From: Escherichia phage vB_EcoM_Lh1B | Direction: 5' to 3' (one strand) | Length of the DNA: 64,000 nucleotides | Sequence record: OK428535.1 | Shown: positions 18,677-61,122 of the stretch, piece after piece | Position numbering within the stretch: the stretch's first letter is position 1 | Layout of the letters: each line of letters opens with the position of its first letter | The notes under the pieces: model-generated | Told to the model about the DNA's origin: nothing | Database searches by the model: none | The model's input: the letters and a program-made list of their open reading frames with translations, nothing else | Made by a program: the position numbers and the translations under genes

Positions 18677-18732
18677 CAGGCTGAAATCGTAGTAAGTCTA
18701 TCGATTCCAAACTTGAAGGTGCAATGGCACCG
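18677..18732 (+). repeat. copy B of ~58-bp direct repeat (intergenic, includes ATG of next gene)
   Basis: caggctgaaatcgtagtaagtctatcgattccaaacttgaaggtgcaatggcaccg; ends in the first three codons of ORF 18724. Confidence 0.8.
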
Positions 18733-20250: not shown

Positions 20251-20453
20251 CGGTTGTGATAATGGGTAATCAGCAGCGAAGCCTCGTGAGAGGAACGTTC
20301 AACGACTATCGCTGAAATGCGAGTAGGGGTCCCAGTGGACTTCGAAGTGGGAGAACACCTAAGGCGATAGCTATGGTGAAGATATAGTCTGTGCCTTATC
20401 GAGAGATAAGGAGGGTGTCTTAGCACACCTGCTGTATACGGAAACGGTATACG

Positions 20454-20693
20454 ATGGACAAACAGGATTTCGATGGTGACCAGTTCCAGGTACGTTTGCC
20501 AGTCGATGAAACTGAGATGAAGTTGGCGCTCCAATTCCGTCCAGATAACGGCTTTATGTCTTCTACTGATGTGGACCGCGTAGAACACGGCATGGTTTTA
20601 CATAACGAGCTAATCAGTATGCAGAACCAGTTCCTTATTGAAGCAGATGAGGATGATGAAGAAGGCATTCCGTTGGAAGCGGTGATGGGCTAA
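20454..20693 (+). CDS. hypothetical small acidic protein
   Basis: 79-aa ORF, weak ribosome-binding site. Confidence 0.3.
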   Translation: MDKQDFDGDQFQVRLPVDETEMKLALQFRPDNGFMSSTDVDRVEHGMVLHNELISMQNQFLIEADEDDEEGIPLEAVMG

Positions 20694-25250: not shown

Positions 25251-26885
25251 ATGAAAATTATGAAGATTAAAGACCGGATGACAATCGAGCATCATGGTCA
25301 AGAGGTCACATTTATTGGCTTACGTTATCGGAAGGATAACAACGCACCCGACTACATCACTGTTAAAGGTAAACAGATTGCACGCGACAACATTCTCTTC
25401 ATGGAATTACAACGCGTGTGGGATTATTTAACGCCAGACGAACAAGATGAACTGTTCATGGCGTATCTGATGCTGGACGAGCTGGCAAACGAATCGACGG
25501 AAACGCAGCGTAAGCACATGCCGAAGATTGTGCAGACGATTGCGAAGTTCCACAAGGCCGAAGTGTATCGTAAGCTGTATCCCATCGATAAGCTGTGGAT
25601 TCCGCAGAACATGGAAGATACGCACGATGAAATGAACAGTAATTATCCGGAAGCGATGACGTACATTCGTCCGGACTATTACGAGTTGTTGATACTGGTC
25701 CTGATGATTAAACCGTATATTCCGGTGTTCCTCACCATGGGGACGTTCCCGATAGGTAAGAACTTGCCAATCGAAACACATCGGAAAATGGTGTACAATC
25801 TGACATACTGTCTGGAGATGCTTCAAGACACAGAAGTCATGTCTTTACCTGCTATTCCGAAACTGCGTGGGTTCCTACAGACAGTGATGGAAAAGGTAGA
25901 AAAAGAACTGGCAAACAAAGGTACGAACAGCACCAGTTTGTCGGTACTAGCTACGGTGCGGGGCTATGGCACGGATATGATGGAAGATTATATCCTGGCG
26001 TATGCTATTATTAAATTGTTGGCTGTCCGTGAAGTCGGTGGTGAATTACCGGTTGAAATCATGGTTAACAACAATATCGTCACCGGCATGTATTTTCTGG
26101 TTAAACAAGAGATTGAAACAGGTTTTGCAAACAAAATCTCTAACCAGCCGGTGCTGTTAAAAGCGCATCCGGAAAGTGTGGTATTCAATGGCGAAAAGGG
26201 TAAGATAAACGCCATGGATTTGGTGCAGGCACGTTCTCCTGCACAGATGAAAGAATACGTCCGTACCGAGTACGTATTTAAAGAATACCGCTCTTTCTTG
26301 AAAACAATGCGTCTGGATAATGCCGCTCCAGCAGATGTTAAGTTATTGATTGATTCGCAACTGGCAACACATGACGGTCCTGTCTATACGTTGCACGAAT
26401 GGTTAGTCGCATTAGCACTCCATCGTAGCGTGCATTATAAGACGTATACTGAATGTGGACCAGAAGCGTTTCGCTACGGTATGGCGTTGGCACAGGCAAC
26501 TTATCTCAATTATGGAATGTATGACGTTGCGCAACTGTTAAGTTGCAATATGGTGCGTTCTGAGATGTCTGCCGGTTATGCAGCCGACCCAATTCGATCT
26601 GAACTCAAAGCAGATTTAGATAGATATTATCTTCAGGAGTATCGCAACCCGCGTAATCTCGAACCGCAATCTACACCACGGGAATCACTGACCTTGTTAC
26701 ACAAGGATCACATCAACCCGTATCTGTTCCATCTCAGGGCTACACCAGAAGCAGCTGCGCTGCTGAAGTGTGAGACGGATCAGCCAAACTATATACCTCA
26801 CTTGTCACTGCACAATAGCCTGGCGGAGTTTATGGTGTTGAATGCACGTCGCAAGTTAGAAGAAGTTGAATGGTTTAATTCTTAA
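25251..26885 (+). CDS. hypothetical protein
   Basis: 544-aa ORF; contains an intragenic promoter-like motif near its 3' end. Confidence 0.6.
   Translation: MKIMKIKDRMTIEHHGQEVTFIGLRYRKDNNAPDYITVKGKQIARDNILFMELQRVWDYLTPDEQDELFMAYLMLDELANESTETQRKHMPKIVQTIAKFHKAEVYRKLYPIDKLWIPQNMEDTHDEMNSNYPEAMTYIRPDYYELLILVLMIKPYIPVFLTMGTFPIGKNLPIETHRKMVYNLTYCLEMLQDTEVMSLPAIPKLRGFLQTVMEKVEKELANKGTNSTSLSVLATVRGYGTDMMEDYILAYAIIKLLAVREVGGELPVEIMVNNNIVTGMYFLVKQEIETGFANKISNQPVLLKAHPESVVFNGEKGKINAMDLVQARSPAQMKEYVRTEYVFKEYRSFLKTMRLDNAAPADVKLLIDSQLATHDGPVYTLHEWLVALALHRSVHYKTYTECGPEAFRYGMALAQATYLNYGMYDVAQLLSCNMVRSEMSAGYAADPIRSELKADLDRYYLQEYRNPRNLEPQSTPRESLTLLHKDHINPYLFHLRATPEAAALLKCETDQPNYIPHLSLHNSLAEFMVLNARRKLEEVEWFNS
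26617..26637 (+). promoter_or_regulatory. intragenic promoter-like motif TAGATAGATATTATCTTCAGG
   Basis: Motif family copy inside CDS 25251..26885, ~265 nt upstream of the next ATG. Confidence 0.4.
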
Positions 26886-29978: not shown

Positions 29979-29985
29979 GCGTTAG

Positions 29986-30015
29986 AAAGAAGGGACTGGG
30001 CGTCCCTTCTTTTTT
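29986..30015. terminator. bidirectional terminator
   Basis: Hairpin GAAGGGAC-TGGG-CGTCCCTTC with A-run before and T-run after. Confidence 0.65.
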
Positions 30016-30339: not shown

Positions 30340-30360
30340 CGTCTCTCCTTAAAATAAAAC

Positions 30361-30375
30361 AGATAGATATTATCT
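30361..30375 (+). promoter_or_regulatory. promoter-like motif AGATAGATATTATCT
   Basis: Motif family copy 30 nt upstream of the RNAP beta-like gene. Confidence 0.5.
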
Positions 30376-30405
30376 TACCGAGGTAACCAAAAGGAGCATT
30401 TACGA

Positions 30406-32643
30406 ATGAAAACACCAGTCGAACTCATGTCAAGCGTTGCTGACCGTGAGGTGAATATCACTGGCGTATCTGGGGCACGTGCCTCAATGGTGGGTGGACA
30501 TATGAAGTCGGCGGTACCACTGGACAATCCAGATCCGACTATCCATTTTACCGGCGCTGATGTGAACTACCACGATTATTGTTTTAACGATATCGTGGAA
30601 GACAGTGGTACCGTGTGCAGTTACACAACCAAAGAAGGTGTTACTCGTGCAGCTGTTTTTGCACGCTATGGTCGTGAAGGGGATCACGATCCGCTCCAAC
30701 ATGTTATCTTCTTCACGCGCGCAGATTTAACCAACCAGCGCAAAGTGATGATTGATGTAATCGATATCAAGTATTACACCAACCACGATAACATTTTCTC
30801 GTCTAAGAAAGAGGCTACTGGGAAACTTCAGGCGTTGCTGCGCGGGCAGACTCAGCACCTGGAAAAAGATGAAATGCTTACCGTGCTGCCGGCACAGAAA
30901 GACGGTGAGTTTGTCGATGGGGTCAACCTGCACACCGTGACAATGTCGCACCCGGACATTATCGAGGACTCGTACACCATCTCCGAAACTGCAGCGAAGG
31001 CGATGCACGCTTATGGTTTGCGTGCAATTGACTTTACCCTCCGTGACGACGAGTACCTGCTTGACACGTATGGGACAACGGGTATTGATGGCGTTCGTCG
31101 ACCACAGTACCTACCCAATAAAGGACAGGCAATTCGTGATGATGGGTTGGTTATTGCCGCGCGCCGTTTCGATAAGCTATGGGCAGCCATTGACTCGCAC
31201 GTAGGTGAAACACAACATATCTCTCCGCACTTCGACCGTTGTGAGTATGTTGATGCTGACCCTGAGCATTACAAAGCGCGTCAGGCTGGCGACTTTGAAA
31301 AGATGGAACGTACTGGTTCTCGTGTCGTTGATATTCAGGTATGGCGGGACGAAACCAAATGCGATCGTGGTGTTAACAATATCGCATGTACCGAAGAGAA
31401 CAAACGCGAGTTAGATCACTACGCGAACGCTTTGAAACGTTTTTACAATGATATCGTGCGGTTCTATTTTGCGATGTCCAAGGACAAGAATATTGTCTGG
31501 TCACCGAAAGCGTTTGAGATTCTTGACAAGGCGTTCTGTTCTGAGACGTATGAAGTCTATAACGACTTCCGTGAAGAGATTGGTCGTGAATACGATGAAG
31601 CCATGCGTAAAGGTGAGTATAACCGTTCTGCTGATAAGAACGTGTTGAACAAACTGGCGCAGCCGGTTCAGCGTGGTCTCTGGGACCCAATTGGTAGCTA
31701 CACGATACGCATCGTGGTACGTTATCCAATCCCAGTTACCGTCTCATCGAAAATCACCGACCGTTCAGGTACAAAAGGTATCGTGGGCGCAGTGCGGCCT
31801 GATGAAGAAATGCCGATTAACGAGTTCGGAGAACGTGTGCATGTCATTCGTTCCATGAACGCCGTAATTCGTCGTTCGACTTATGCTGCGCTGTTCCACA
31901 TGTATTGGTCTGCTGCATCCGAGCAGTTGAAGATGCGGTTGAAACCATTACTTGCTGCCAACCAGGTTGATGAAGCCTGGGAAATCCTGATGGACTATAT
32001 CGATCGCTATAACCCACGCTGGACATTCTATCTCAATGCCAGTCACCCAGATACTGAGTCACGTCTGGAACTCTTTAAAGAGATTTACGACTTCACGATT
32101 CGTATCTGGCTTCCCCACGAATTGAATGCCACCCAGGTAGAAATCTGCCGTGCTCTAGGCGAGTATGCACCACGCAAGTCTAAGCTACTGATTACTAACT
32201 ATCAGGGTGAGAAAGAGTGGACGAAGAACCAGTTCTACGTCGGCATGGTAGAGACTCTGCGCCTGGATAAAACCGGTCGTGAGTTCTCCAGTATCTCATC
32301 GATGTACACGAACTATTTGGGTTGTATTGATGCATCCAACCAAGGACGTGGTTCATATCCGATTAACCTGAAAGGGTTGAAGTGGGGTGGTCCTTCCGAG
32401 CAGCGTCTTACCGACGGCTTTGGTCCGGGCAACTTCCCCGAAACTCATGACCGCGCTAATAACCCTGCGGTACACCGTGCGATCGTAACGGGGTTGTATA
32501 ACTCGCCAACACCAACCAATCCGGGGGTGCTGGTCGATCGTAAGAAACTGCCAATGGGAGATTCGCAGATTGACAGGATGATACGTAACATCCATCGCTG
32601 TGAAGGTTTTGAATTAGTGCGTCCAATTCGGGAGGATAAATAA
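30406..32643 (+). CDS. multisubunit RNA polymerase beta-like subunit (C-terminal portion)
   Basis: KITDRSGTKGIVGAVRPDEEMPINEFGERVHVI...SMNAV parallels beta [33 protein letters not shown]...SRMNIG. Confidence 0.7.
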   Translation: MKTPVELMSSVADREVNITGVSGARASMVGGHMKSAVPLDNPDPTIHFTGADVNYHDYCFNDIVEDSGTVCSYTTKEGVTRAAVFARYGREGDHDPLQHVIFFTRADLTNQRKVMIDVIDIKYYTNHDNIFSSKKEATGKLQALLRGQTQHLEKDEMLTVLPAQKDGEFVDGVNLHTVTMSHPDIIEDSYTISETAAKAMHAYGLRAIDFTLRDDEYLLDTYGTTGIDGVRRPQYLPNKGQAIRDDGLVIAARRFDKLWAAIDSHVGETQHISPHFDRCEYVDADPEHYKARQAGDFEKMERTGSRVVDIQVWRDETKCDRGVNNIACTEENKRELDHYANALKRFYNDIVRFYFAMSKDKNIVWSPKAFEILDKAFCSETYEVYNDFREEIGREYDEAMRKGEYNRSADKNVLNKLAQPVQRGLWDPIGSYTIRIVVRYPIPVTVSSKITDRSGTKGIVGAVRPDEEMPINEFGERVHVIRSMNAVIRRSTYAALFHMYWSAASEQLKMRLKPLLAANQVDEAWEILMDYIDRYNPRWTFYLNASHPDTESRLELFKEIYDFTIRIWLPHELNATQVEICRALGEYAPRKSKLLITNYQGEKEWTKNQFYVGMVETLRLDKTGREFSSISSMYTNYLGCIDASNQGRGSYPINLKGLKWGGPSEQRLTDGFGPGNFPETHDRANNPAVHRAIVTGLYNSPTPTNPGVLVDRKKLPMGDSQIDRMIRNIHRCEGFELVRPIREDK

Positions 32644-34748
32644 TGGCGGGTCGTTCTGTACACGTGCGTGATTTGCGTATGCTTAACTCTGATCAGGTGT
32701 GGAAACTACGCGGGCGTTATTACGTGACATTCGACGATGGTAAGTCGTTGGAAATGTCTAGTCGCCACATCAAACTCAGCTGGCCGTATTGGGGTGTGTC
32801 GCGTCTGTATCCGCAGGTGCCCACTCCATCGACCATGGCGTATCGTCCAGGTCAGGTAGCAACAGATGACCTGCATCTGGACTTTATGTCGGAAGCAGCG
32901 GTACTGGCCCGTAAAGCAGGTGTCGACCTTGCTGAAACGCGTTATATCCTGAGTCAACATGTCTACGCCGATGCGTTCAACATGACAGTGAAGAACTTGC
33001 TGTCGTATTGTACGACAATCGACTTTGACACGATGATGGAGATCTACGACCACCCGAACTTCGAACTCATCCGTCAGTGGGAAGTGCAATACCCTACTGG
33101 CTACGATGAAGATGGTCAGGATATGGTTGAAGAAGCGTACAAGCTTATCGAGAAAATCTTCAAAGACCCTGCGCTACGGTATAACCCGGTCGTGATGTCG
33201 GTACTGGACGGTACTGTGAAGATGAACCAGGTACTGCAAGCCTTCGTGCGTGGTAAAACGTCAGAAATTGACTCACGTGTATACACCAATCAGGTGTGGG
33301 AAGGCTTCTTTACCGGAATGCACTCGGTTATTTCGCGTTTGAAAGAATCCGGTGCAACATCACGTTCCCACTTGTACAACACTGACAAGATTGCCGAAGC
33401 AGAATACGCCTCACGTAAACTGCAGCTGGCAGCAAACGTACTGATGTATTTCACGTACGACGACTGCGGTACAACTCACGCACACCGCTACACGTTTAAG
33501 GATACGCAGCTGGATGAGCGTGCCTATAAAGCGATGGTGGGGATGCGTTATCGTTTAGAAGGCGATAATGGTCCGTGGTTGAGATTTGAGAAAGGTGGAT
33601 ACGCAGACCTGGTTGGTAAACCGCTGGTCTTCCGTAGTGCAATGACCTGTAAAGAGATGGCGAATCAGTCCATCTGTGCGACCTGCATGGGGGATTTGAT
33701 TTATAACCTCTCTGAAGGCACGTCACCGGGTCACCTGGCATCCACTTCCATCTCAGAAAAGGGTACACAGGGAATTCTCTCCACCAAGCACCTTGACTTC
33801 TTGCGTTATCTGCTCAACCTGGTACTCACGCCGAGAATGCGTGAGTACATGACCGAATACAAACATAACTCTCTGAAAGGGTTGTGCTTGCTACCAAAAC
33901 CACAGCGTGGTAATTGGTCAGAATACGAGTTGGTCGTTACCGACAAAGTTTATTCGGAGCTGAGCCAGATTGCGTATCATGAAGATCTCGATGCAATCGA
34001 TGAAACAGCATTGCCGGAAATCACCGACTTGACATTCCAGCGTCGTTTAGAAGATGGGCAAATCATCGCTGCAGATTCTATCGATGTGCGAATGGGTGTT
34101 TGTGGGAACTTCTCTAAACCGTTCTTGCATTACTTCTTGAAACAACGTGCGAACATTCGTATCGAGAAGAAGACGGTTCAGATTCCTTTGAAAGGATGGA
34201 ACCCGAAACACCCGGTACTGGTCTACACCAACCGTTCTGAATCGATGGCAGAATTCGTGGCAGGGTTAGAAACCAAGCTACGTTCAATCGCAGCCGATAA
34301 GAACGAAGACATTGTGGAAATCATCAACACAGCCTCGACTGTGAAGTTGAACAAGAAACAAGGTCGTGTGAAACCGGTAACGTTGGTTGAAATGGGTGGT
34401 GCTACAGAGAAACAGTGTACTTATGCGTTGATGGATACGTTTAAGTACATCCAGCGTAAGCTGAGCGGTATACCGATGACGCACATTGCGATTATGTTGG
34501 CGATATCTCGTGTAGAGTCACCAACCAATCCGTTCCCGGCAGTAGGATTTGACAGTGAGGATTCTACTAATGCCACCGGGAAACGGTTTGTCGATCACAA
34601 CACGCTCATTAGTTTGCGCTCGGCAATTCCGATGTTGTTGTTTGAAGGACAGCAGGGGAATATCGATCGCGTTGGTTTTTATACCGAGTACAAAATCCCG
34701 GCATCGTTGTACGATGACCTAGGAGCCGCTGTGGTAATTGAGTTGTAA
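32643..34748 (+). CDS. multisubunit RNA polymerase beta-prime-like subunit (C-terminal portion)
   Basis: CATCMGDL (cf. CAHCYGRDL) and trigger-loop-like TSISEKGTQGILSTKH (cf. QSIGEPGTQLTMRTFH); TAATG coupling to beta-like gene. Confidence 0.65.
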   Translation: MAGRSVHVRDLRMLNSDQVWKLRGRYYVTFDDGKSLEMSSRHIKLSWPYWGVSRLYPQVPTPSTMAYRPGQVATDDLHLDFMSEAAVLARKAGVDLAETRYILSQHVYADAFNMTVKNLLSYCTTIDFDTMMEIYDHPNFELIRQWEVQYPTGYDEDGQDMVEEAYKLIEKIFKDPALRYNPVVMSVLDGTVKMNQVLQAFVRGKTSEIDSRVYTNQVWEGFFTGMHSVISRLKESGATSRSHLYNTDKIAEAEYASRKLQLAANVLMYFTYDDCGTTHAHRYTFKDTQLDERAYKAMVGMRYRLEGDNGPWLRFEKGGYADLVGKPLVFRSAMTCKEMANQSICATCMGDLIYNLSEGTSPGHLASTSISEKGTQGILSTKHLDFLRYLLNLVLTPRMREYMTEYKHNSLKGLCLLPKPQRGNWSEYELVVTDKVYSELSQIAYHEDLDAIDETALPEITDLTFQRRLEDGQIIAADSIDVRMGVCGNFSKPFLHYFLKQRANIRIEKKTVQIPLKGWNPKHPVLVYTNRSESMAEFVAGLETKLRSIAADKNEDIVEIINTASTVKLNKKQGRVKPVTLVEMGGATEKQCTYALMDTFKYIQRKLSGIPMTHIAIMLAISRVESPTNPFPAVGFDSEDSTNATGKRFVDHNTLISLRSAIPMLLFEGQQGNIDRVGFYTEYKIPASLYDDLGAAVVIEL

Positions 34749-34751: not shown

Positions 34752-34778
34752 GAGGGGCCTTGCGCCCCTCTTTTTTTG
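34752..34778 (+). terminator. rho-independent terminator
   Basis: Hairpin GAGGGGC-CTTG-CGCCCCTC then TTTTTTT. Confidence 0.7.
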
Positions 34779-34794: not shown

Positions 34795-37539
34795 ATGGTA
34801 GAAATTCAAATGACTTACACGAGTATGGGGGTACGGGTTGAAGTCCCCATCCGCCAGGCTGAAAGGGCCATACTCGCGTGGGCCGAAGAGAATATGCACG
34901 CCCCAAAGATGGGCAAGCAACATGGACGAATAACCACGGAACGCGGCGATGCGTACTACGCCCACATTCCGTCTTTAAGGACATTCATTTTCCATAAAGT
35001 GTTCGCTGAGAAGATTAAACATATCCTCCAACGGGCAGCAATTGAATACGCTTTTCAGTACAAGCTTACAGAGCACCATCCTGAACGAGGAACACCTTAC
35101 AGCTGTACATTTGATAACTACGGTTTCTCGATGGTAGAAAGCGATCCGGAGTCGCGGTTCTATTATCAGAACGAGGTTGTGGATGCAGCATCCGATCCAA
35201 ACCGACCACAGACAATCTTTGCCATTCAGACAGGGAGAGGAAAATGCTGTGCTCATGGTACGCGTGTGCGTGTACCGGGTGGTTGGAAGAACATTGAGGA
35301 TATACAGCTAGGTGATTACGTTACGGGGCGTGACGGAAAACCAGCAATGGTCTCTGGAGTGTTCCCACAGGGTGTGGTTGACCTGTATCAGGTGACGTTT
35401 TGGGATGGTAGGAGTGTTGACGTATGTGGCGAGCACTTGTGGCAAAGCTACTACGTTAATACCACCGAGAATCGTCGCTGGGGTGTACGTGATACCCTAG
35501 AGATGAAACGTTTAATTTCGATGCCTAATCCACGGGTATACATCCCATTACCAGAACCAGAGGAAATGCCAGCTAAGGATTTTGTCATTCATCCGTATTT
35601 ACTCGGTATCCTCTTGGGTGATGGCTCCCTATCGATGCCTGGTGTTTTATACACCAAAGGCGATGTGGAGATTCGTGACCGTGTTGCTGAGGTCATGCCC
35701 GCTGGACATGCAATCCATGATTCATCGTACAGCGATGGGATAACGAAGTGCATCTCTTGTCCCGGCGGTGTTAACCTTGTCCGCAGAGAGCTTGAGCGGT
35801 TAGGGTTAATTGGCTGCAGGTCTTGGGAAAAGTTCATACCTGGAGATTACTTCGAAACGTCCATCGAACAACGGTGGGAGTTGTTGCGTGGCTTGATGGA
35901 TACTGACGGTACTGTGGATAAGGATGGTGGTACGCCTTCTTTCTGTTCCACCAGTAAAGAATTGGCTTTAGGTGTTCAGGAACTTGTGCGGTCTTTAGGA
36001 GGGATTGCAACACTACGCGAGAAACGTCCGTTCTTCACACACAACGGCGAACGTCGTGAAGGTCGTTTGGCTTATAACGTCTCCATCCGCCACAAAACAC
36101 CATCGAAACTGTTCCACCTTCCAAGGAAGAAAGAACTGTGTCGTGATAACGGACAATACACCGATATACTGAAACTCCGTGTTAAGTCTATCGAACCCAT
36201 TGGTCGTGATCTTGCCACGTGTATTCGTGTCGAGAACGACGATGCGTTGTTTGTGGTGGACAAGTGGATCGTTACGCACAACACCAAGACCTGTATGAAG
36301 TCGATGGTTAAACGGGGAACCCGTACCGCATTGATTCACCGTCCGTCATACGTTCCCAAATGGCTGTTTGACGTCTGTGATGATGAAACAGGACTTCGTA
36401 TACTTCGTGACGAGGTGTTAGTTTGTACAGGCGTACAGGCGATTTACGACGCACTGGAGATGGGTAAGTCGGGAGAGCTAGATAGACGCGGTATTAAGGT
36501 AATAATCCTCCCCACGGTCTCTCTACAGCGTTTCCTGAAGGAGTACATTAACACTGCTGCGACTAACCCTGTGGACCTGGATACGTTTTATGATGTTCTG
36601 GGTGTGGGTCTGGTGGCGATGGATGAGGTGCACGAGCATTTTCACCTCGTTTACATGGCTGGTATAATGTTGAACCCGCCGGCATCGATAGAGATGTCTG
36701 CAACTCTTAAACCGGGTAGCAGTAAAGCCTTTATCGCGGAGCGGTATTTAGAACGTTTCCCAATGGAGTACCGAATCAGTATTCCAATCATTCCGGTGGT
36801 TGACGTGAAAGCGTTGTACTATCGACTGGATGATAAGAAGTTCGCGTGGTGGGCGTCGAAGATGACGCCGTATAACCACAAACTCTTCGAAGGGAAGCTG
36901 ATTAAAGAGAACTTGCATTTAGAATACGCGAACATGATCTGGGATGTGGTTGAGAAATCGTTCCTTAAACGGTATCAACCCGGCCAGAAGTGTTTGCTGC
37001 TATTTGCCACGGTTGCAATGTGTGAGTTCTTTACCGAGTATGTGAAAGATAAGTTATCGCGTGACCCTGTATTCCATCCACTGATGGTGGCGAAATATAA
37101 TGCAGGCGATTCGTATGACGACTTTATCCAAGCAGACTTCTCTATCTCCACACCGGGGAAAGCGGGGACTGCGGTCGATAAACCTGGGTTGGTGCACATG
37201 TACATTTCAACCCCGGTAGAAGACCAGCAACTGAACGAACAGATGGCCGGTCGTCCACGTAAGATTCTCCACAACGAGTGGGGTGAAATAGACCCAACGG
37301 TGTGGTTATTCCATGCGTATAACGTACCGAAGCATTGCAATTACTTGAATGCCCGCCAGAAATCACTCAAGGATGTCGTATTGTCGTTCCGTATCGCGAC
37401 ATCCCCCTACGTTGTAAGGAAATCACATGCTCACTCCGCCGCGTCCAGCAGAGCCACTGCCGCCCTACATCGGAATGACTTTAGCAAGTTTTCTCGAAAA
37501 CATTCTAAAGGCGTATCCCGGCGTAGAAGACGTCGCTAA
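34795..37539 (+). CDS. DExH-box SF2 helicase interrupted by an intein
   Basis: Extein motifs: I AIQTGRGK|T (split by intein), II VAMDEVHEH, III SAT, VI QMAGRPRK; start at ATG 34795 after GAGGGG; 3' end uncertain (overlaps ORF 37427). Confidence 0.75.
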   Translation: MVEIQMTYTSMGVRVEVPIRQAERAILAWAEENMHAPKMGKQHGRITTERGDAYYAHIPSLRTFIFHKVFAEKIKHILQRAAIEYAFQYKLTEHHPERGTPYSCTFDNYGFSMVESDPESRFYYQNEVVDAASDPNRPQTIFAIQTGRGKCCAHGTRVRVPGGWKNIEDIQLGDYVTGRDGKPAMVSGVFPQGVVDLYQVTFWDGRSVDVCGEHLWQSYYVNTTENRRWGVRDTLEMKRLISMPNPRVYIPLPEPEEMPAKDFVIHPYLLGILLGDGSLSMPGVLYTKGDVEIRDRVAEVMPAGHAIHDSSYSDGITKCISCPGGVNLVRRELERLGLIGCRSWEKFIPGDYFETSIEQRWELLRGLMDTDGTVDKDGGTPSFCSTSKELALGVQELVRSLGGIATLREKRPFFTHNGERREGRLAYNVSIRHKTPSKLFHLPRKKELCRDNGQYTDILKLRVKSIEPIGRDLATCIRVENDDALFVVDKWIVTHNTKTCMKSMVKRGTRTALIHRPSYVPKWLFDVCDDETGLRILRDEVLVCTGVQAIYDALEMGKSGELDRRGIKVIILPTVSLQRFLKEYINTAATNPVDLDTFYDVLGVGLVAMDEVHEHFHLVYMAGIMLNPPASIEMSATLKPGSSKAFIAERYLERFPMEYRISIPIIPVVDVKALYYRLDDKKFAWWASKMTPYNHKLFEGKLIKENLHLEYANMIWDVVEKSFLKRYQPGQKCLLLFATVAMCEFFTEYVKDKLSRDPVFHPLMVAKYNAGDSYDDFIQADFSISTPGKAGTAVDKPGLVHMYISTPVEDQQLNEQMAGRPRKILHNEWGEIDPTVWLFHAYNVPKHCNYLNARQKSLKDVVLSFRIATSPYVVRKSHAHSAASSRATAALHRNDFSKFSRKHSKGVSRRRRRR
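35245..36282 (+). mobile_element. intein with LAGLIDADG homing-endonuclease domain, inserted in helicase P-loop
   Basis: Starts with Cys directly after the Walker-A lysine (CCAHGTRVRV...), ends ...VVDKWIVTHN followed by Thr; two LAGLIDADG motifs (YLLGILLGDGS, ELLRGLMDTDGTV); 346 aa. Confidence 0.75.
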
Positions 37540-38491: not shown

Positions 38492-40454
38492 GATCCAAGA
38501 TCAGCGTCCGGGTAATGCCCGTCNCCCTAATCCCGATCAGCCAGCCCCTGTGGCGGCTGCTACCCAACAAGAGATGATTCTTCCGACCGTGCCTGATGAC
38601 GCGAATCCGGATGCAATCATCATGNCTATTAAACANNNNNACCCCNATTTTNNTTTTGCCCGTGCAGAAGAAGTTTATCACCAACATTATCATCAGCCGG
38701 AGCCTAAGCTCGAGCGTCCGACGTTTGTAGAAGAAGCTTTGCCCGAACCTGCTGCACCGGTACAGCCTGTATCCCAGACCTTCTCTGAACAGGTGCATGA
38801 GCATATTCATCACACCCCAGAACCGGNGGNAGAGAAANCGCCNGNGGNANAACCNNCNCCCCNNCNAAAAACNCCGGNNGGGGGNGNCCCNNNNAACCCG
38901 GGGNNAAAAAAAAAGNAAAACNCNNCNCCNAAGGTTCCGGAANAANAACAGGNCCNNGNGANTNACTTNGGTAANACCCATTTAGCTGAAACCGCCGAAA
39001 TGGGTGAAGATGAAGCTGATCGTATCCTGACACAGTCGAAGATGTTGATTGGTCTGAAACAAGACCCTAACATCATTGCAGACTCTCTGCAAAAGTTCCT
39101 CGGTAACATTAAACGTTCACCGAAAGACGGTCGGCTGCTGTTCGAAAGCCCTGAACAACAACAGGTTTACGACGACATCTATCGTGCTTTGAACATGACA
39201 CCGCCACGTCTACAGGACGGCGTACCGGCATTCGCTGGTGCACTGGACCGTGGTGACACCGCTTGGGAACAGCGTGTGATGTTGCCGGACGGTAAGGCAT
39301 CTGGTGCTATTGCACCGCGTGACAATATGCACACTGGCGCGCTGGCTGCTTTGCGTCGTGTACGTAAGTCGGGTATTCCGAACATGGTTTGGCTGCCGGC
39401 CACAGGTATCTACGTGNGCTTCCNCGCACCACATGAACGCGACCTTTGTGACTTCGACATGCGTCTAACACTGGAAACTGCGACCATCGGTATGCAGACC
39501 TACGGATTGATGCTGTCGTCGTCTTCTGGCGTGTACATGCGTCACATGGTTGAATTCGCACTTCAGTTTGTTACCGAAGCAACCATCGATTGTGCAGGTA
39601 ACGATCTGCGTACGGTGCTGTTGGATACCATTGATCTGGCTGACTACTGGCTGGTTATTCTGGGTCCGTTGCAGGCGAAGTGGCCGTCTGGTATTCCATG
39701 GACGCTGATGTGTGGCGAAGACGGTTGCACTCAGCAGGAAGATGTGAAGCTGAATATCGCACGTTGTATCCGTTTTGGTTCCGGTCTGTTTAGCGACCTG
39801 CAGAAANAACNGTGGGNACGTCAGCGCGGTACTGAGCGTCCAGTGATTTCTATTGCTGAACAGCGCGAATATATCGCGGCGCATCAGGTTGACCCATCCT
39901 CGGTATTTGAATACCACGACGTGCGTGTTGAATTTGGCCGTTCTACCCTGGGTAGCTTCTTTGACTCCACCGAGAAGTGGATTGAAGACGTTAACGCGTC
40001 AACTACGGCAGCGCTGTCTGAATTTGCTACCGAGCGTGAACGTGAATCCCATATGCGTTTAACTGCGGAAGCCCGTCGCTTAACGCGCTACGCTCACATG
40101 GTGAAATCTATCACTGTTAATGAGCAACGTGAAGTAAACGGTGAAATGCAGGTTATCCCACAAACTGAAACCGACACAGCGAAAATCGTTGAGATGCTGG
40201 AAGAGCTGTCTTCCGACCGTATCTACGTTGGTCAGTTTGAAAACGCGATTGCTGAATACAACGAACGTACACGTTTAGCGGTATTCGGTTACATGGGTAA
40301 ACGCTGCCCGGCGTGCGGTAAAACACACGGCGAGAAAGACGGTCTGTATCGCGGTATTGTTACCATCTCACCGGACAGGGTTTTTTTCGTGCTCTCTCGA
40401 GTGGTGTCCGAGATTCAGAAATTCTTGCTGGATCAATACGCCGATATTGGCTAG
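38484..40454 (+). CDS. hypothetical protein; Pro/Glu/Lys-rich low-complexity N-region, C-terminal CPACG zinc-ribbon-like motif
   Basis: 656-aa ORF; frame through 38521..38990 is provisional because of many N calls. Confidence 0.45.
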   Translation: MSEIQDQRPGNARXPNPDQPAPVAAATQQEMILPTVPDDANPDAIIMXIKXXXPXFXFARAEEVYHQHYHQPEPKLERPTFVEEALPEPAAPVQPVSQTFSEQVHEHIHHTPEPXXEKXXXXXXXPXXKXPXGXXXXNPGXKKKXNXXXKVPEXXQXXXXXXGXTHLAETAEMGEDEADRILTQSKMLIGLKQDPNIIADSLQKFLGNIKRSPKDGRLLFESPEQQQVYDDIYRALNMTPPRLQDGVPAFAGALDRGDTAWEQRVMLPDGKASGAIAPRDNMHTGALAALRRVRKSGIPNMVWLPATGIYVXFXAPHERDLCDFDMRLTLETATIGMQTYGLMLSSSSGVYMRHMVEFALQFVTEATIDCAGNDLRTVLLDTIDLADYWLVILGPLQAKWPSGIPWTLMCGEDGCTQQEDVKLNIARCIRFGSGLFSDLQKXXWXRQRGTERPVISIAEQREYIAAHQVDPSSVFEYHDVRVEFGRSTLGSFFDSTEKWIEDVNASTTAALSEFATERERESHMRLTAEARRLTRYAHMVKSITVNEQREVNGEMQVIPQTETDTAKIVEMLEELSSDRIYVGQFENAIAEYNERTRLAVFGYMGKRCPACGKTHGEKDGLYRGIVTISPDRVFFVLSRVVSEIQKFLLDQYADIG

Positions 40455-40498
40455 ACCAGGAAGACGTTCCGTCCGAGCAAATCATTACAACGCTCAAG

Positions 40499-40870
40499 AT
40501 GGATACCACCTCTCTCTTCAAGCAGCGTAGCACACGTCCTATTACGTATCAGGAAGCCCATAACGAGCTTCTGGAAGCGTATGACCGTACACTGGCTCTT
40601 AATACCGGCGACCATCAGGTAGGGTTGTCAGATTTTGAAAACCCGGTATACGGTAGTCTTTACGATATCTGGTACGCCACTTACTTACGTGAAGAGGTCG
40701 GTGAAAACTACCGGATGTCGATAGACGAGTTCCTCGACCGTCCCCNCTGGCAGATACTNCTNATGCNCGACAATGCCCGTCGCCCCAATGNGTTTTTCCC
40801 CAAANCCGGGGAATACGCGGCGGGTAAACGCGGGCAAAAGGAGCCGGATAAATATATGACGGGATATTAA
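40499..40870 (+). CDS. hypothetical protein
   Basis: 123-aa ORF, weak ribosome-binding site, contains N calls. Confidence 0.3.
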   Translation: MDTTSLFKQRSTRPITYQEAHNELLEAYDRTLALNTGDHQVGLSDFENPVYGSLYDIWYATYLREEVGENYRMSIDEFLDRPXWQIXXMXDNARRPNXFFPKXGEYAAGKRGQKEPDKYMTGY

Positions 40871-40879
40871 AANAAATTN

Positions 40880-40908
40880 GGGGNTTCGGCCCCGTTTTCT
40901 TTTTTTTA
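40880..40908 (+). terminator. rho-independent terminator
   Basis: Hairpin GGGGnTTCGGCCCC then T-run (contains N). Confidence 0.55.
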
Positions 40909-40950
40909 TTCGCCTTGGTATGAATGCCCTTTTCACTATGGAACAGAGCC

Positions 40951-41808
40951 ATGATTGATATTTATACCGACTATGCGGCTGTATTGACAGTCAACCGTCA
41001 CGAAGGTCGTGCAGCACCGATGCTAGATTTAGTGACGCTCGGTATGGATTACGGTTACGATGTGGCGTTATCCGATGTTTATAGCAACCCGTTGTCTGAC
41101 CCTGCGGACGAAACTGTTCGTCTGGAATCCATTATCGTGAAGGTAGCGGTTGGGTTAGGCAACCGCCTCGGTATCGGACTTAATCCACAAATCGTCTTCC
41201 AGAAACCGAAAGAAACCGTACGTATCCTTCACGGTGTGTTGGAAGCCTTCGAAGAGTTCGAAGACAGTGATGCCCTTTACGGGATTGTCTCCTCTGGTGA
41301 GACACCAGAGTATATCCTGGAGAACATGTGTCGTTATGTTTACGGTGACGAAAACCTGCACTTCGAAGACCTGATTACTGTTGTCAGCCCACGCGTGCTT
41401 ACCGTGATGGAAAACTTCTTAGCGGCAGAGTCGTTGGAAAGCCAGAAAAGAAATGGCGATGATGAGCGCCAAGAGCGTATCGTCACTTACTTGCGGTTGT
41501 TCCCTGAGAACCCGTCAGCGTTTGTCTTTATGAATCTGCCTGCTGAACCAGACTTAACAGTGGTGCAACAATCGTTAGAATTTCGCGTAGAAGACATTAG
41601 CGAAATTGATTTGCTGACGATGTATGCGGTAGGTTTATCGATTATTCCTCATGCGGAGTTTGACGGGGCTTACGGTGACTTAGAAAAGAACCTTGCCTTG
41701 TTGAACGTCGACAACGTCCCGCCTGGAGAAATCTTGCGGAAAGGATTGGAAGCGTTGAAAGTCATATACGCTAGTGGGGTCGCGGAGGTAGATGATGAAC
41801 AAGATTGA
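40951..41808 (+). CDS. hypothetical acidic protein
   Basis: ORF; start ambiguous between 40924 and 40951. Confidence 0.45.
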   Translation: MIDIYTDYAAVLTVNRHEGRAAPMLDLVTLGMDYGYDVALSDVYSNPLSDPADETVRLESIIVKVAVGLGNRLGIGLNPQIVFQKPKETVRILHGVLEAFEEFEDSDALYGIVSSGETPEYILENMCRYVYGDENLHFEDLITVVSPRVLTVMENFLAAESLESQKRNGDDERQERIVTYLRLFPENPSAFVFMNLPAEPDLTVVQQSLEFRVEDISEIDLLTMYAVGLSIIPHAEFDGAYGDLEKNLALLNVDNVPPGEILRKGLEALKVIYASGVAEVDDEQD

Positions 41809-43090
41809 TTATCTGGTTGCTGCGTGTAAAGCAGAAGCTTGGCGTAGACTGGTGTGGCGTATTGCGGTTTTCAACGTGGCCATCTTTAATGAAAAAGGTG
41901 AGCCACCTGAGCAATACGACCTGAACTACATTGACGGCTTACCCCACTACTGGGAAAACGAAGAAACCAAGTGGGTGCCGATTGAAGGGTGCAAAAAAGA
42001 TGAAGAGCTGTTCGTGCCGGAAGAGCAGTTTGAATTGCGTCCTGAGATGTACCCAGGTTTAGCTGGTCCCATTCCAACTACTGTGGGTCGCTATGTCTTT
42101 AACTGGATTGCTATCTACTATGCTTTCGGTACCCGTCTCCCGTATCTGGCAGAGTCTCGTGACCCGCTAGCCTACCGTAAAGAGATGTATGAGCGTTGTG
42201 TGGAATATGATGACACCGATCCAGACAACGAAGACGCGATTCGACCGTACATGATAGGACGCTTTGTAGGGGGTCTGCACGAGCTTGCTCCGTTGTGTCG
42301 TGGGATTGCCCCAACAGGAACTATTAGAAGCCTTACAACGCATCCTGACGCGTATAAGGTACGAGATGCGTTGCTGTTGAAGCACAAAGACGAACTGGAT
42401 AACCCTGCGGTTATCGTTATGATTGAAAAAGCTCTCGACGAACTTGATAAAGAGTGGTTGAGTGGCGACCAGTCCGTTGAGTTCTACAGCTCTCCTAAAG
42501 CGCGTATGCGTCGCCGTAAGCTGATGCTGATGTACGGTATTCAGACCGCTTTTAAAGAAGGTGCAGATTTTACCTTAATCCCAACGAGCCTGATGGAAGT
42601 TGATCAGACCGGGATGAAGTATCTGGTAGAGAAATTCAATGATACGCGAGAAGGTTCCTTCATGCGTGGTGCAGAAACTGCCAAGGGCGGGGAGCAAGTA
42701 CGTATCATCCAGATGATTTTCCAGAACCACAAAATCGTGCCTGGGGATTGCGGGACAAAACTGACACATGCACTTGTAATTAACCAGTATAACTACAAGC
42801 GTTATGTTGGCATGAACGCGATGATTAACGGTAAAGTTACCCAACTTACTGAAGAGTATTTGAAAACGCAATTTGGTAAAGTTGTTCGACTCCGCCGACC
42901 CATCTTATGTCAGCAAGGTCACGTAGACTGTTGNGCGGCGTGCGCCTCTGCACACAAAGCAGAAGAGCCACGGGCAATCGCTGCGGATATCTCTTCCGGC
43001 TTCTCGAACGTTATGACCACTGCAATGGGTGCGATGCACGGTCGCGAAACCGTGGTTAAAGAGTACATCCCTAAATTCCACATCACCTAA
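41792..43090 (+). CDS. hypothetical protein
   Basis: 432-aa ORF, GGAGG upstream. Confidence 0.5.
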   Translation: MMNKIDYLVAACKAEAWRRLVWRIAVFNVAIFNEKGEPPEQYDLNYIDGLPHYWENEETKWVPIEGCKKDEELFVPEEQFELRPEMYPGLAGPIPTTVGRYVFNWIAIYYAFGTRLPYLAESRDPLAYRKEMYERCVEYDDTDPDNEDAIRPYMIGRFVGGLHELAPLCRGIAPTGTIRSLTTHPDAYKVRDALLLKHKDELDNPAVIVMIEKALDELDKEWLSGDQSVEFYSSPKARMRRRKLMLMYGIQTAFKEGADFTLIPTSLMEVDQTGMKYLVEKFNDTREGSFMRGAETAKGGEQVRIIQMIFQNHKIVPGDCGTKLTHALVINQYNYKRYVGMNAMINGKVTQLTEEYLKTQFGKVVRLRRPILCQQGHVDCXAACASAHKAEEPRAIAADISSGFSNVMTTAMGAMHGRETVVKEYIPKFHIT

Positions 43091-43103
43091 GGATTGTTTC
43101 CTC

Positions 43104-43604
43104 ATGACTAAGAAAGACACTACTACCCTTGACCCGCGTACAGAAGGCGTGGTCCGTGATAGCGCTTCTTACAGCAACGACGACCAATATCATGTTAAAC
43201 TGATCACCACAATGCTTGATGAAGCAGGTAACAATGCCGGCCCACGTAAAGCATCTGGTACCCAGGCTGAGAAAGATGCGTATAATAAGCTGCATCACTC
43301 TTTCCGTGAGCTGTTTAAACTGCGCGGTCAGGCCTTCCTGGACGGTTTCTACGCCTTTGTAGAAGCGGCTAATAAGCACCGTAACGGTATTTTCTACGCA
43401 CCGGCTGCTAATAACCGTATCAGTGAGAACTTCCCGAATCGTGACGAGCGTGAAGTCTTCGTTATCTTTATTAACATGCTGATTCGTTACGCACGTTGCG
43501 CCGATAAAGGCCGTTTCCGTGATACCAACGATGTTGACCGTCTGGCTCGTCGCCTGAACGACCCGGACCTGCGTTCGCTGGTTATGCACGCCTTTGGCGG
43601 TTAA
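43104..43604 (+). CDS. hypothetical protein, probably highly expressed
   Basis: ATG at 43104 after TAAGGA; CGT/CTG-rich optimal codons; followed by strong terminator. Confidence 0.55.
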   Translation: MTKKDTTTLDPRTEGVVRDSASYSNDDQYHVKLITTMLDEAGNNAGPRKASGTQAEKDAYNKLHHSFRELFKLRGQAFLDGFYAFVEAANKHRNGIFYAPAANNRISENFPNRDEREVFVIFINMLIRYARCADKGRFRDTNDVDRLARRLNDPDLRSLVMHAFGG

Positions 43605-43607
43605 ATA

Positions 43608-43652
43608 AAAGTACCTCTCTACCCTAGGGTAGAGAGGCCTTTCTTTTTTTGT
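43608..43652. terminator. bidirectional terminator between convergent genes
   Basis: Hairpin CCTCTCTACCC-TA-GGGTAGAGAGG with A-run before and T-run after. Confidence 0.7.
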
Positions 43653-43653
43653 T

Positions 43654-45438: not shown

Positions 45439-45508
45439 GGTCTACTCTCAAATATGGTGTCTGCTATACTGATTTGTGGGTAACGTATTTTCTAAAAGGA
45501 ACGTCTAA

Positions 45509-46861: not shown

Positions 46862-46876
46862 GTAAGGGTACTTAAC

Positions 46877-49050: not shown

Positions 49051-49052
49051 AA

Positions 49053-49098
49053 TAAAAGGCTACCCTCTCCTTCGGGAGAGGGTAGTGCTTTTTTTATT
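49053..49098. terminator. bidirectional terminator between convergent operons
   Basis: Hairpin CTACCCTCTCC-TTCG-GGAGAGGGTAG with A-run before and T-run after. Confidence 0.7.
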
Positions 49099-53316: not shown

Positions 53317-53338
53317 TAACTCCGGAGTTTAGTTAAAA

Positions 53339-61121: not shown

Positions 61122-61122
61122 A

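What the first reader, a model, noticed from the sequence alone, without database searches (positions are those of the whole stretch)
30406..34748. Adjacent beta-like and beta-prime-like fragment genes of a split multisubunit RNA polymerase
Two translationally coupled ORFs carry hallmark motifs of the beta C-terminal region (GxxGxKG...EEMP...SMN) and of the beta-prime C-terminal region (CxxC...G, trigger-loop GTQ...T.H). Polymerases split into several polypeptides are, as far as I recall, a signature of phiKZ-like jumbo phages, which encode virion and non-virion enzymes. The upstream promoter-like motif suggests this pair is in the same temporal class as the abundant 617-aa protein.
Basis: partly seen in the sequence, partly recalled or inferred. 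Interest (0 to 1): 0.5.

Follow-up and report, generated by a model that had tools for sequence, protein, structure and literature searches.

The report
Known jumbo-phage non-virion RNA polymerase genes
These two overlapping genes encode the beta C-terminal and beta-prime C-terminal pieces of the split, phage-made (non-virion) RNA polymerase of an SPN3US-like Salmonella jumbo phage; they are already annotated and described in the literature, so the finding is correct but ordinary.

Summary
ORFs 30406..32643 (745 aa) and 32643..34748 (701 aa) are intact and overlap by one base (TAATG).

The window is a Seoulvirus, an SPN3US-like Salmonella jumbo phage (up to 99.8% DNA identity). The two proteins are 99.7% identical to SPN3US gp34 and gp35, which the literature names as non-virion RNAP (nvRNAP) beta and beta-prime C-terminal subunits. 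They match the solved phiKZ nvRNAP chains gp71-73 (E 1.9e-29) and gp74 (E 8.8e-39). They align collinearly with E. coli beta 669-1286 and beta-prime 716-938. The two double-psi beta-barrel (DPBB) lysines, the four zinc cysteines and the start of the trigger loop are conserved; the alignment also spans the bridge-helix region.

Two more nvRNAP subunit genes lie in the window: beta-prime N (18724..20693) and the gp68-like fifth subunit (25251..26885). The beta N piece lies outside it, and one virion-RNAP subunit sits at 41792..43090.

A strand-specific AT-rich motif, (A)GATAGATATTATCT, precedes the pair, the gp68-like gene and the 617-aa gene that heads the beta-prime N unit.

Verdict: already known, low interest. 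Side observations are a group I intron at the DFDGD catalytic motif of beta-prime N and an intein in the downstream helicase.

The parts
30358..30379 (+). Promoter-like motif AACAGATAGATATTATCTTACC (core GATATTATCT at 30366-30375), 31-40 nt upstream of the ORF1 ATG. It is a candidate early (virion-RNAP) promoter for the ORF1-ORF2 unit.
   Evidence: There are 6 exact + strand copies in the window. At up to 1 mismatch there are 16 matches against 2.36 expected. The same sites occur in SPN3US, including upstream of its gp76-gp77 (beta N) unit. [quoted passage not shown]
30406..32643 (+). nvRNAP beta C-terminal subunit gene (745 aa), the ortholog of SPN3US gp34 and phiKZ gp71-73. It contains the beta DPBB lysines K449 and K457, EEMP 467-470 and SMN 483-485.
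   Evidence: 7OGP_C E 1.9e-29; AR9 7S00_C E 1.6e-08; E. coli beta 669-1286, hhalign probability 97%; 99.7% aa identity to SPN3US gp34.
32643..34748 (+). nvRNAP beta-prime C-terminal subunit gene (701 aa), the ortholog of SPN3US gp35 and phiKZ gp74. It covers the bridge-helix region, the Zn site C275/C336/C345/C348 and the trigger-loop start G374-T-Q...T381-K-H383. Its start overlaps the ORF1 stop by 1 nt (TAATG), with SD GGGAGGA at 32630-32636.
   Evidence: 7OGP_D E 8.8e-39; E. coli beta-prime 716-938, probability 95.7%; 99.7% identity to gp35; gp74 E 1.5e-41 against vRNAP gp80 E 5.9e-5. PMC5105663 names gp35 as the nvRNAP beta-prime subunit.
34752..34777 (+). Terminator-like GC-rich hairpin (GAGGGGCCTTGCGCCCCTC) followed by T7, 4 nt after the ORF2 stop. 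It is the likely 3' end of the bicistronic unit.
   Evidence: The role is inferred only; terminator-like sites are not enriched over shuffles in this region.
18724..20109 (+). nvRNAP beta-prime N-terminal subunit gene, exon 1 (ortholog of SPN3US gp23 and phiKZ gp55). The SPN3US-annotated start corresponds to GTG 18742. The exon ends ...KMANG.
   Evidence: (7OGP_A E 1.5e-32).
20110..20465 (+). Group I intron (356 nt, no endonuclease ORF) interrupting the beta-prime N gene immediately before the catalytic DFDGD motif.
   Evidence: Rfam RF00028 scores 69.4 bits against a gathering score of 50, E 1.6e-15. The insertion relative to SPN3US is shown. Conceptual splicing gives 529/530 identity to gp23. 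phiKZ gp55 has an intron (with the HNH endonuclease gene gp56) at the same site, APNG|DFDGD.
20466..20693 (+). nvRNAP beta-prime N-terminal subunit gene, exon 2. It starts DFDGDQFQV..., carrying the catalytic Mg-binding aspartates.
25251..26885 (+). Homolog of phiKZ gp68, the fifth (sigma-like) nvRNAP subunit (544 aa). It is preceded by the same promoter-like motif at 25207.
   Evidence: 7OGP_B E 2e-06; blastp E 9e-13. The role of gp68 comes from PMC8287921.
41792..43090 (+). Context: one subunit of the second (virion) polymerase set, the ortholog of SPN3US gp42 and phiKZ gp80.
   Evidence: (E 1.9e-38 to gp80). SPN3US virion proteomics are in PMC5694885.

Best explanation
The two genes encode the beta C-terminal (ORF1) and beta-prime C-terminal (ORF2) polypeptides of the non-virion multisubunit RNA polymerase of an SPN3US-like (Seoulvirus) jumbo phage.

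**Shown here**
- Orthology to SPN3US gp34/gp35 and phiKZ gp71-73/gp74.
- Conservation of the beta DPBB lysines, the beta-prime zinc site and the start of the trigger loop, within an alignment that also spans the bridge-helix region.
- Partner genes in the same window: beta-prime N carrying DFDGD, and a gp68-like fifth subunit.
- Synteny with the phiKZ gp68-gp80 block.

**Inferred by analogy with phiKZ and AR9**
- The pair is transcribed early from the AT-rich motif at 30366 by the virion RNAP that is injected with the DNA.
- It is translated as a coupled bicistronic message.
- The products assemble with beta N (the gp77 homolog, outside the window), beta-prime N and the gp68-like subunit into a five-subunit enzyme lacking alpha and omega.
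- That enzyme transcribes middle and late phage genes independently of the host RNAP.
For: **Identity of the window.** Up to 99.8% DNA identity to Seoulvirus genomes, whose annotations call these genes RNAP beta and beta-prime. 99.7% amino-acid identity to SPN3US gp34 and gp35.

**Family matches.**
- PHROG RNAP families at E 2e-268 and 1.1e-240.
- Pfam Rpb2_6 above its gathering score.
- phmmer to the phiKZ nvRNAP cryo-EM chains: 7OGP_C E 1.9e-29 and 7OGP_D E 8.8e-39.
- hhalign to E. coli beta 669-1286 and beta-prime 716-938.

**Catalytic and structural residues.**
- K449 and K457 align with phiKZ K386 and K394 (PMC8287921).
- C275, C336, C345 and C348 align with the E. coli and phiKZ zinc cysteines.

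**Non-virion rather than virion lineage.** ORF2 matches gp74 at 1.5e-41 against gp80 at 5.9e-5, while the separate 432-aa ORF matches gp80 at 1.9e-38.

**Partners.** Beta-prime N, the gp68-like subunit, and beta N as SPN3US gp77, which matches 7OGP_E at 3e-20.

**Literature.**
- gp35 is the nvRNAP beta-prime subunit (PMC5105663).
- gp34 is 'Non-virion RNAP beta' (PMC7411985).
- The vRNAP is gps 42, 218, 240, 241 and 244 (PMC5694885).
- nvRNAP genes are early genes in phiKZ and AR9 (PMC7598289).

**Promoter motif.**
Against: Nothing contradicts it. The limits are these:
- No expression, splicing, assembly or activity data exist for this particular genome.
- Pfam Rpb1_5 on ORF2 is below its gathering score (17 against 28.5 bits). 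The beta-prime assignment therefore rests on the phiKZ gp74 match and the hhalign result.
- The first Gly of the bacterial GRHGNKG motif is Asp here.
- The temporal class and the polymerase that reads the motif are inferred by analogy only.
- The beta N subunit is not in the window.
Confidence: 0.95

Rival explanations
1. The pair belongs to the virion-packaged RNA polymerase (vRNAP) that is injected with the DNA, not to the non-virion enzyme.
For: Both sets are split beta/beta-prime homologs. ORF2 shows weak paralogous similarity to the vRNAP family (phrog_2962 E 1.7e-06; phiKZ gp80 E 5.9e-5).
Against: - The best matches by more than 30 orders of magnitude are to the nvRNAP chains.
- A distinct gp80/gp42 ortholog exists at 41792..43090.
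- SPN3US virion proteomics list gps 42, 218, 240, 241 and 244 as the vRNAP, not gp34 or gp35 (PMC5694885).
- gp34 is labelled non-virion (PMC7411985).
- ORF2 carries the C-terminal beta-prime region in one polypeptide, as the nvRNAP does, whereas the vRNAP needs the separate gp244 (PMC5105663).
Confidence: 0.02
2. The ORFs are decayed or captured fragments of cellular rpoB/rpoC with no polymerase function.
For: Identity to cellular beta and beta-prime is only about 20-26%. One Pfam hit is below threshold.
Against: - Both are long intact ORFs with Shine-Dalgarno sites.
- Homologs occur in 270 phage records from many hosts, with the beta C / beta-prime C / helicase gene order kept.
- Catalytic and structural residues are kept.
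- The phiKZ and AR9 orthologs are parts of solved, active enzymes (PMC8287921; PMC7598289).
Confidence: 0.01
3. This rival concerns the promoter sub-claim only. The GATATTATCT motif would not be an early vRNAP promoter. It would instead be a middle promoter read by the nvRNAP itself, or a binding site for a regulator.
For: No transcript mapping exists for this phage group in what I could search. One copy (26623) lies inside the gp68-like ORF. The motif is a near-palindrome (minus-strand 1-mismatch echoes), as operator sites often are.
Against: - All exact copies are on the coding strand.
- The copies at 7770, 16750, 25207 and 30366 lie about 40-56 nt upstream of start codons; 16657 is a second, more distal copy before the 617-aa gene and 26623 lies inside an ORF.
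- The motif precedes the nvRNAP genes, which cannot depend on nvRNAP for their own first expression.
- Reviews state that a roughly 10-nt AT-rich motif upstream of early operons is found in every RNAP-encoding jumbo phage, and that it proved to be the early promoter wherever it was tested (PMC7598289).
- AT-rich elements sit at the same position in CR5, 201phi2-1 and phiKZ.
Confidence: 0.15

Closest known systems
Salmonella phage SPN3US gp34 and gp35 (SPN3US_0034 / SPN3US_0035), the nvRNAP beta and beta-prime C-terminal subunits
   Same: Same length, same gene order and same 1-nt overlap. Amino-acid identity is 99.7% for both. The promoter-like motif sits at the same position.
   Different: Essentially nothing within the two genes. 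The surrounding genome differs by mobile elements: a group I intron in the gp23 homolog and an intein in the gp36 helicase homolog. Both are absent from SPN3US.
Pseudomonas phage phiKZ nvRNAP subunits gp71-73 and gp74 (PDB 7OGP chains C and D)
   Same: - Same split architecture and same adjacency (beta C, then beta-prime C, then helicase), inside a syntenic gp68-gp80 block.
- Conserved DPBB lysines, Zn cysteines and trigger-loop start.
   Different: - Only about 22-26% identity.
- The phiKZ beta C gene is itself interrupted by an intron with the endonuclease gp72; here it is continuous.
- The genes are separated by 30 nt in phiKZ but overlap here.
Bacillus phage AR9 nvRNAP (PDB 7S00)
   Same: A split beta/beta-prime enzyme with a gp68-like promoter-specificity subunit. 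ORF1 matches chain C at E 1.6e-08, and beta-prime N matches chain d.
   Different: It is much more distant. AR9 has uracil-containing DNA and recognises template-strand uracils (PMC7598289). ORF2 gave no phmmer hit to an AR9 chain.
Bacterial RNAP beta (RpoB) and beta-prime (RpoC), e.g. E. coli
   Same: Collinear with beta 669-1286 and beta-prime 716-938, with the active-site-proximal motifs kept.
   Different: - Each subunit is split into two polypeptides.
- There are no alpha or omega homologs in this enzyme class (PMC7598289).
- Identity is about 20-26%.
- The gene order places beta C next to beta-prime C, rather than next to beta-prime N.

Membership tests
Multisubunit RNAP beta subunit, C-terminal half (Rpb2 domain 6 / DPBB-B) | Significant match to the curated family profile | tested here: met
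   Pfam PF00562 RNA_pol_Rpb2_6 scores 24.1 bits against a cut-off of 23.4, E 2.3e-05, residues 430-507. hhalign to E. coli beta 669-1286 gives probability 97%, E 1.2e-10.
Multisubunit RNAP beta subunit, C-terminal half (Rpb2 domain 6 / DPBB-B) | Two conserved DPBB lysines (phiKZ gp71-73 K386 and K394; the K..GxxGxKG region of bacterial beta) | tested here: met
   K449 and K457 align with K386 and K394 in the phmmer alignment (residue roles from PMC8287921). The same segment aligns with E. coli [11 protein letters not shown]. The first Gly of GxxGxKG is Asp452.
Multisubunit RNAP beta-prime subunit, C-terminal part (Rpb1 domain 5; bridge helix and trigger loop) | Significant match to the curated family profile | tested here: inconclusive
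   Pfam PF04998 RNA_pol_Rpb1_5 gives E 0.0041 and 17 bits, below the 28.5 cut-off. Profile-sequence hhalign to E. coli beta-prime 716-938 gives probability 95.7%, E 1e-08.
Multisubunit RNAP beta-prime subunit, C-terminal part (Rpb1 domain 5; bridge helix and trigger loop) | Four-Cys zinc site, bridge helix, and trigger loop with the conserved GTQ...H | tested here: met
   C275, C336, C345 and C348 align with phiKZ C288, C341, C350 and C353 and with the E. coli DDCGT...C..C..C segment. EKGTQGILSTKH aligns with EPGTQLTMRTFH (PMC8287921).
phiKZ-type non-virion RNAP (as opposed to the virion RNAP) | Closest to the nvRNAP lineage in reciprocal comparison | tested here: met
   ORF2 matches gp74 at E 1.5e-41 against gp80 at 5.9e-5. 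ORF1 matches gp71 and gp73 at 2e-12 and 3e-19. The separate 432-aa ORF matches gp80 at 1.9e-38. The beta C virion paralog (phiKZ gp149) was not compared.
phiKZ-type non-virion RNAP (as opposed to the virion RNAP) | A full complement of partner subunits: beta N, beta-prime N with DxDGD, and the gp68-like fifth subunit | tested here: met
   Beta-prime N lies at 18724..20693 and matches 7OGP_A at 1.5e-32; its DFDGD is restored after removal of the intron. The gp68-like gene lies at 25251..26885. Beta N is not in the window, but SPN3US gp77 matches 7OGP_E at 3e-20.
phiKZ-type non-virion RNAP (as opposed to the virion RNAP) | Absent from the virion; synthesised after infection | not testable with these tools
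   Literature for the 99.7%-identical SPN3US proteins only. The vRNAP is gps 42, 218, 240, 241 and 244 (PMC5694885), and gp34 is listed as 'Non-virion RNAP beta' (PMC7411985).
phiKZ-type non-virion RNAP (as opposed to the virion RNAP) | Conserved gene neighbourhood (gp68, gp69, gp70, beta C, beta-prime C, helicase) | tested here: met
   The same order is seen in phiKZ, 201phi2-1, CR5 and pVa-21. The window proteins match phiKZ gp68, gp70, gp77 and gp80.
Early (vRNAP-dependent) transcription unit of RNAP-encoding jumbo phages | A conserved AT-rich motif of about 10 nt upstream of the operon, shared with other early genes | tested here: met
   Six exact + strand copies, with 0 of 100 shuffles reaching the observed count. 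The SPN3US beta N unit also has the motif.
Early (vRNAP-dependent) transcription unit of RNAP-encoding jumbo phages | Transcription start just downstream of the motif, independent of new protein synthesis | not testable with these tools
   This needs dRNA-seq or primer extension with and without chloramphenicol.

The most novel reading that the evidence does not exclude
The pair itself is not novel. The most novel reading the evidence leaves open concerns the window's version of the nvRNAP locus, which is flanked by two polymorphic self-splicing elements.
- An endonuclease-less group I intron sits exactly at the DFDGD catalytic motif of beta-prime N.
- A LAGLIDADG intein sits in the Walker A loop of the helicase immediately downstream of beta-prime C.

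These elements might do more than ride along as passengers. They could gate nvRNAP and replisome production, or mediate exclusion between co-infecting Seoulviruses. [quoted passage not shown]
Probability: 0.1. Interest if true: 0.4.

Novelty: already known. Interest (0 to 1): 0.12.

Why it matters
The finding matters little as a discovery. These genes are annotated in GenBank for SPN3US and its relatives, discussed in the SPN3US literature, and their phiKZ orthologs have solved structures. Its value is as an anchor. It identifies the window as a Seoulvirus (SPN3US-like, phiKZ-related) jumbo phage. It also fixes the non-virion transcription module: beta-prime N, the gp68-like subunit, beta C and beta-prime C. 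Finally, it supplies a candidate early-promoter consensus, (A)GATAGATATTATCT, that can be used to partition the genome into temporal classes.

Tried and rejected
**Searches that found nothing**
- phmmer against PDB sequences found no hit for the 617-aa protein, the gp42 homolog or SPN3US gp78.
- I checked whether the 617-aa protein, which sits just upstream of beta-prime N as phiKZ gp54 (nuclear shell protein) does, is a chimallin. Pairwise blastp and phmmer against phiKZ gp54 gave nothing (E at or above 0.1). tblastn found homologs only in SPN3US-, Erwinia- and Cronobacter-type phages, all annotated as hypothetical. Its identity and abundance remain unestablished here.
- tblastn of SPN3US gp77 and gp78 against the window found no beta N piece.

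**Scans that showed no enrichment**
- The sigma-70 promoter scan of 29900-35000 found 4 sites against 6.6 expected. This gives no support for host-RNAP promoters.

**Alternative reading considered and rejected**
- I tested other splice junctions for the intron within the repeated GATGG. Only 20109|20110 and 20465|20466 keep a U before the 5' splice site, a terminal G, and the SPN3US reading frame. This is my own reading.

**Not run**
- Structure prediction, fold search, the large protein-database searches and contig look-ups. Sequence matches to solved structures and near-identical annotated genomes were already decisive.

Full report
**1. Observation**

- The TAA stop of the first (32641-32643) shares its last A with the ATG of the second.
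- A GGGAGGA Shine-Dalgarno lies 7-13 nt upstream of that ATG.
- ORF1 has AAGGAG at 30391-30396.

- ORF1: GTKG at 455, EEMP at 467, SMN at 483.
- ORF2: CATC at 345, GTQ at 374, TKH at 381.
- One detail is wrong: no literal G..G.KG exists. The segment reads DRSGTKG.

**2. What the window is**

Megablast of the region hits 48 phage records. Thirty cover at least 80% of the query, and identity reaches 99.8% (Salmonella phage 1252). All the close hits are SPN3US-like Salmonella/Escherichia/Proteus jumbo phages of about 240 kb, genus Seoulvirus. Their annotations already call the two genes RNA polymerase beta and beta-prime subunits. The proteins are 99.7% identical to SPN3US gp34 and gp35.

**3. 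What the proteins are**

*ORF1*
- It passes the Pfam gathering score for RNA_pol_Rpb2_6.
- It matches PHROG 3295, 'RNA polymerase beta subunit', over its full length (E 2e-268).
- By phmmer it matches chain C (gp71-73) of the phiKZ non-virion RNAP cryo-EM structure 7OGP (E 1.9e-29) and chain C of the AR9 nvRNAP 7S00. A tail of bacterial beta subunits follows.

*ORF2*
- It matches PHROG 3015 (E 1.1e-240).
- It matches 7OGP chain D, gp74 (E 8.8e-39).
- Its Pfam Rpb1_5 hit is sub-threshold.

*Mapping to E. coli*

I built a small profile from the window protein plus the CR5, pVa-21 and 201phi2-1 orthologs (and phiKZ gp74 for beta-prime). hhalign of this profile gave:
- ORF1 residues 16-677 collinear with E. 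coli beta 669-1286 (probability 97%).
- ORF2 residues 177-385 collinear with E. coli beta-prime 716-938 (probability 95.7%).

ORF1 therefore starts at the conserved ...ANRALMGxNMQRQAVP block (here GARASMVGGHMKSAVP) and runs close to the beta C-terminus.

*Conserved residues*
- K449 and K457 align with the DPBB lysines K386 and K394 of gp71-73 (PMC8287921).
- C275, C336, C345 and C348 align with the beta-prime zinc site.
- EKGTQGILSTKH aligns with the trigger-loop start EPGTQLTMRTFH.

**4. Which polymerase set**

Local blastp against phiKZ proteins separates the two lineages.
- ORF2 matches nvRNAP gp74 at E 1.5e-41, but virion gp80 at only 5.9e-5.
- A different window ORF (41792..43090, 432 aa, the SPN3US gp42 homolog) matches gp80 at 1.9e-38.

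The literature agrees.
- The SPN3US vRNAP is gps 42, 218, 240, 241 and 244 by virion proteomics (PMC5694885).
- gp35 is called the nvRNAP beta-prime subunit (PMC5105663).
- gp34 is called 'Non-virion RNAP beta' (PMC7411985).

**5. The rest of the enzyme**

| Subunit | Location | Evidence |
|---|---|---|
| beta-prime N | window 18724..20693 | 7OGP chain A (gp55), E 1.5e-32 |
| gp68-like fifth (sigma-like) subunit | window 25251..26885 | 7OGP_B E 2e-06; blastp 9e-13 |
| beta N | outside the window | no tblastn hit in the window; SPN3US gp77 at 73754-75532 matches 7OGP_E at 3e-20 |

The block from the gp68-like gene through the gp80-like gene is syntenic with phiKZ gp68-gp80. The beta C, beta-prime C, helicase order recurs in phiKZ, 201phi2-1, CR5 and pVa-21. 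tblastn finds ORF2 homologs in 270 phage records spanning Pseudomonas, Erwinia, Vibrio, Serratia, Klebsiella, Ralstonia and Staphylococcus phages.

**6. Promoter claim**

*Enrichment and strand.* The 10-mer GATATTATCT occurs six times exactly, always on the + strand: 7770, 16657, 16750, 25207, 26623 and 30366. At up to one mismatch there are 16 matches against 2.36 expected, and no shuffle reaches that number.

*Consensus and position.* The flanks extend the consensus to about (A)GATAGATATTATCT. The proximal copies at 7770, 16750, 25207 and 30366 start about 40-56 nt upstream of start codons. Site 16657 is a second, more distal copy ahead of the 617-aa gene, and 26623 lies inside the gp68-like ORF.

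*What it precedes.*
- The 617-aa gene, which is followed by beta-prime N.
- The gp68-like gene.
- ORF1.
- In SPN3US, also the gp76-gp77 (beta N) unit.

*Comparisons.* AT-rich elements sit at the same place upstream of the CR5, 201phi2-1 and phiKZ beta C genes. No excess of sigma-70-like promoters is seen. A GC hairpin with a T7 run follows ORF2 at 34752-34777.

*Interpretation.* Reviews state that such a motif upstream of early operons exists in every RNAP-encoding jumbo phage, that it was the early (vRNAP) promoter wherever it was tested, and that nvRNAP genes are early genes (PMC7598289). That the class is 'early, read by the vRNAP' is an inference by analogy.

**7. Mechanism**

Most of this is inferred from phiKZ and AR9. 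The injected vRNAP transcribes the ORF1-ORF2 unit from the motif at 30366. The 1-nt stop/start overlap couples translation of the two subunits. They assemble with beta N, beta-prime N and the gp68-like subunit into an alpha- and omega-less five-subunit enzyme. Its active site is formed by the beta-prime N DFDGD and the ORF1 lysines, with the ORF2 bridge helix and trigger loop driving nucleotide addition. This enzyme transcribes middle and late genes independently of the host RNAP (PMC8287921; PMC7598289).

**8. Seen in passing**

*(a) Group I intron in the beta-prime N gene*
- The gene is interrupted by a 356-nt group I intron at 20110..20465 (Rfam RF00028, 69.4 bits, E 1.6e-15).
- It is inserted exactly between ...KMANG and DFDGD.
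- Removing it restores a protein 529/530 identical to SPN3US gp23.
- phiKZ gp55 carries an intron, with the HNH endonuclease gene gp56, at the homologous APNG|DFDGD site.
- The intron is present in only some Seoulviruses, where the gene is annotated as two CDSs.

*(b) Intein in the helicase*
- The helicase downstream of ORF2 has its true start at ATG 34795.
- It carries a 346-aa LAGLIDADG/Hint intein at nt 35245..36282, inserted in its Walker A loop (GRGK|T).
- The intein is absent from SPN3US and present in four database records.

*(c) Ambiguity codes*
- The window contains many IUPAC ambiguity codes from 38524 onward.

**9. Verdict**

The refinement is that these are the non-virion set, specifically the beta C and beta-prime C pieces. 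The feature is already known, so interest is low.

Noticed in passing
window 20110..20465 (+), within the beta-prime N gene 18724..20693: A 356-nt group I intron without an endonuclease ORF (Rfam RF00028, 69.4 bits). It is inserted exactly before the catalytic DFDGD motif of the nvRNAP beta-prime N subunit. Conceptual splicing restores 529/530 identity to SPN3US gp23. phiKZ gp55 has an HNH-carrying intron at the homologous site. The intron is present in only 5 close Seoulvirus records plus 2 diverged ones, and those records annotate the gene as two CDSs.
   Followed up: yes
window 35245..36282 (+), within the helicase gene 34795..37539: A 346-aa intein (LAGLIDADG_3 plus Hint; it begins with C, ends with HN and is followed by T). 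It is inserted in the Walker A loop GRGK|T of the phiKZ gp75-like helicase immediately downstream of ORF2. It is absent from SPN3US gp36 (568 aa) and from most relatives, and present in EC001, SPLA3, SPLA5c and JN03. The 933-aa TTG-start ORF listed mechanically at 34738 runs through a terminator-like hairpin, so it is probably too long at its 5' end.
   Followed up: partly
window 4806, 7770, 16657, 16750, 25207, 26623, 30366, 58731 (+): A strand-specific AT-rich motif, (A)GATAGATATTATCT, found mostly upstream of + strand genes. It is a candidate early-promoter consensus of this phage group. Site 26623 lies inside the gp68-like ORF, about 275 nt before the next gene.
   Followed up: partly
window 16806..18659 (+): A 617-aa protein of unknown function (phrog_8316) sits immediately upstream of beta-prime N, the position that the nuclear shell protein gp54 occupies in phiKZ. 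No pairwise similarity to phiKZ gp54 was detectable, and there was no hit among PDB sequences.
   Followed up: partly
window 38524..63708: More than 100 scattered non-ACGT (IUPAC ambiguity) positions, clustered for example at 38827-38975 and 45518-45654. None occur before 38524. This suggests a consensus built from a mixed or low-quality assembly in that part of the window.
   Followed up: no
window 29985..30015: A GC-rich hairpin (AGAAGGGAC...GTCCCTTCT) flanked by A and T runs lies between the convergent 455-aa (+) and 107-aa (-) genes. It looks like a bidirectional terminator that isolates the ORF1-ORF2 unit from the upstream gp68-gp70-like genes.
   Followed up: no
window 2141..2213 and 3301..3370 (+): Two tRNA genes (Rfam RF00005, 63.6 and 40.9 bits). 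They correspond to the tRNA-Trp and tRNA-OTHER features annotated in SPN3US.
   Followed up: no
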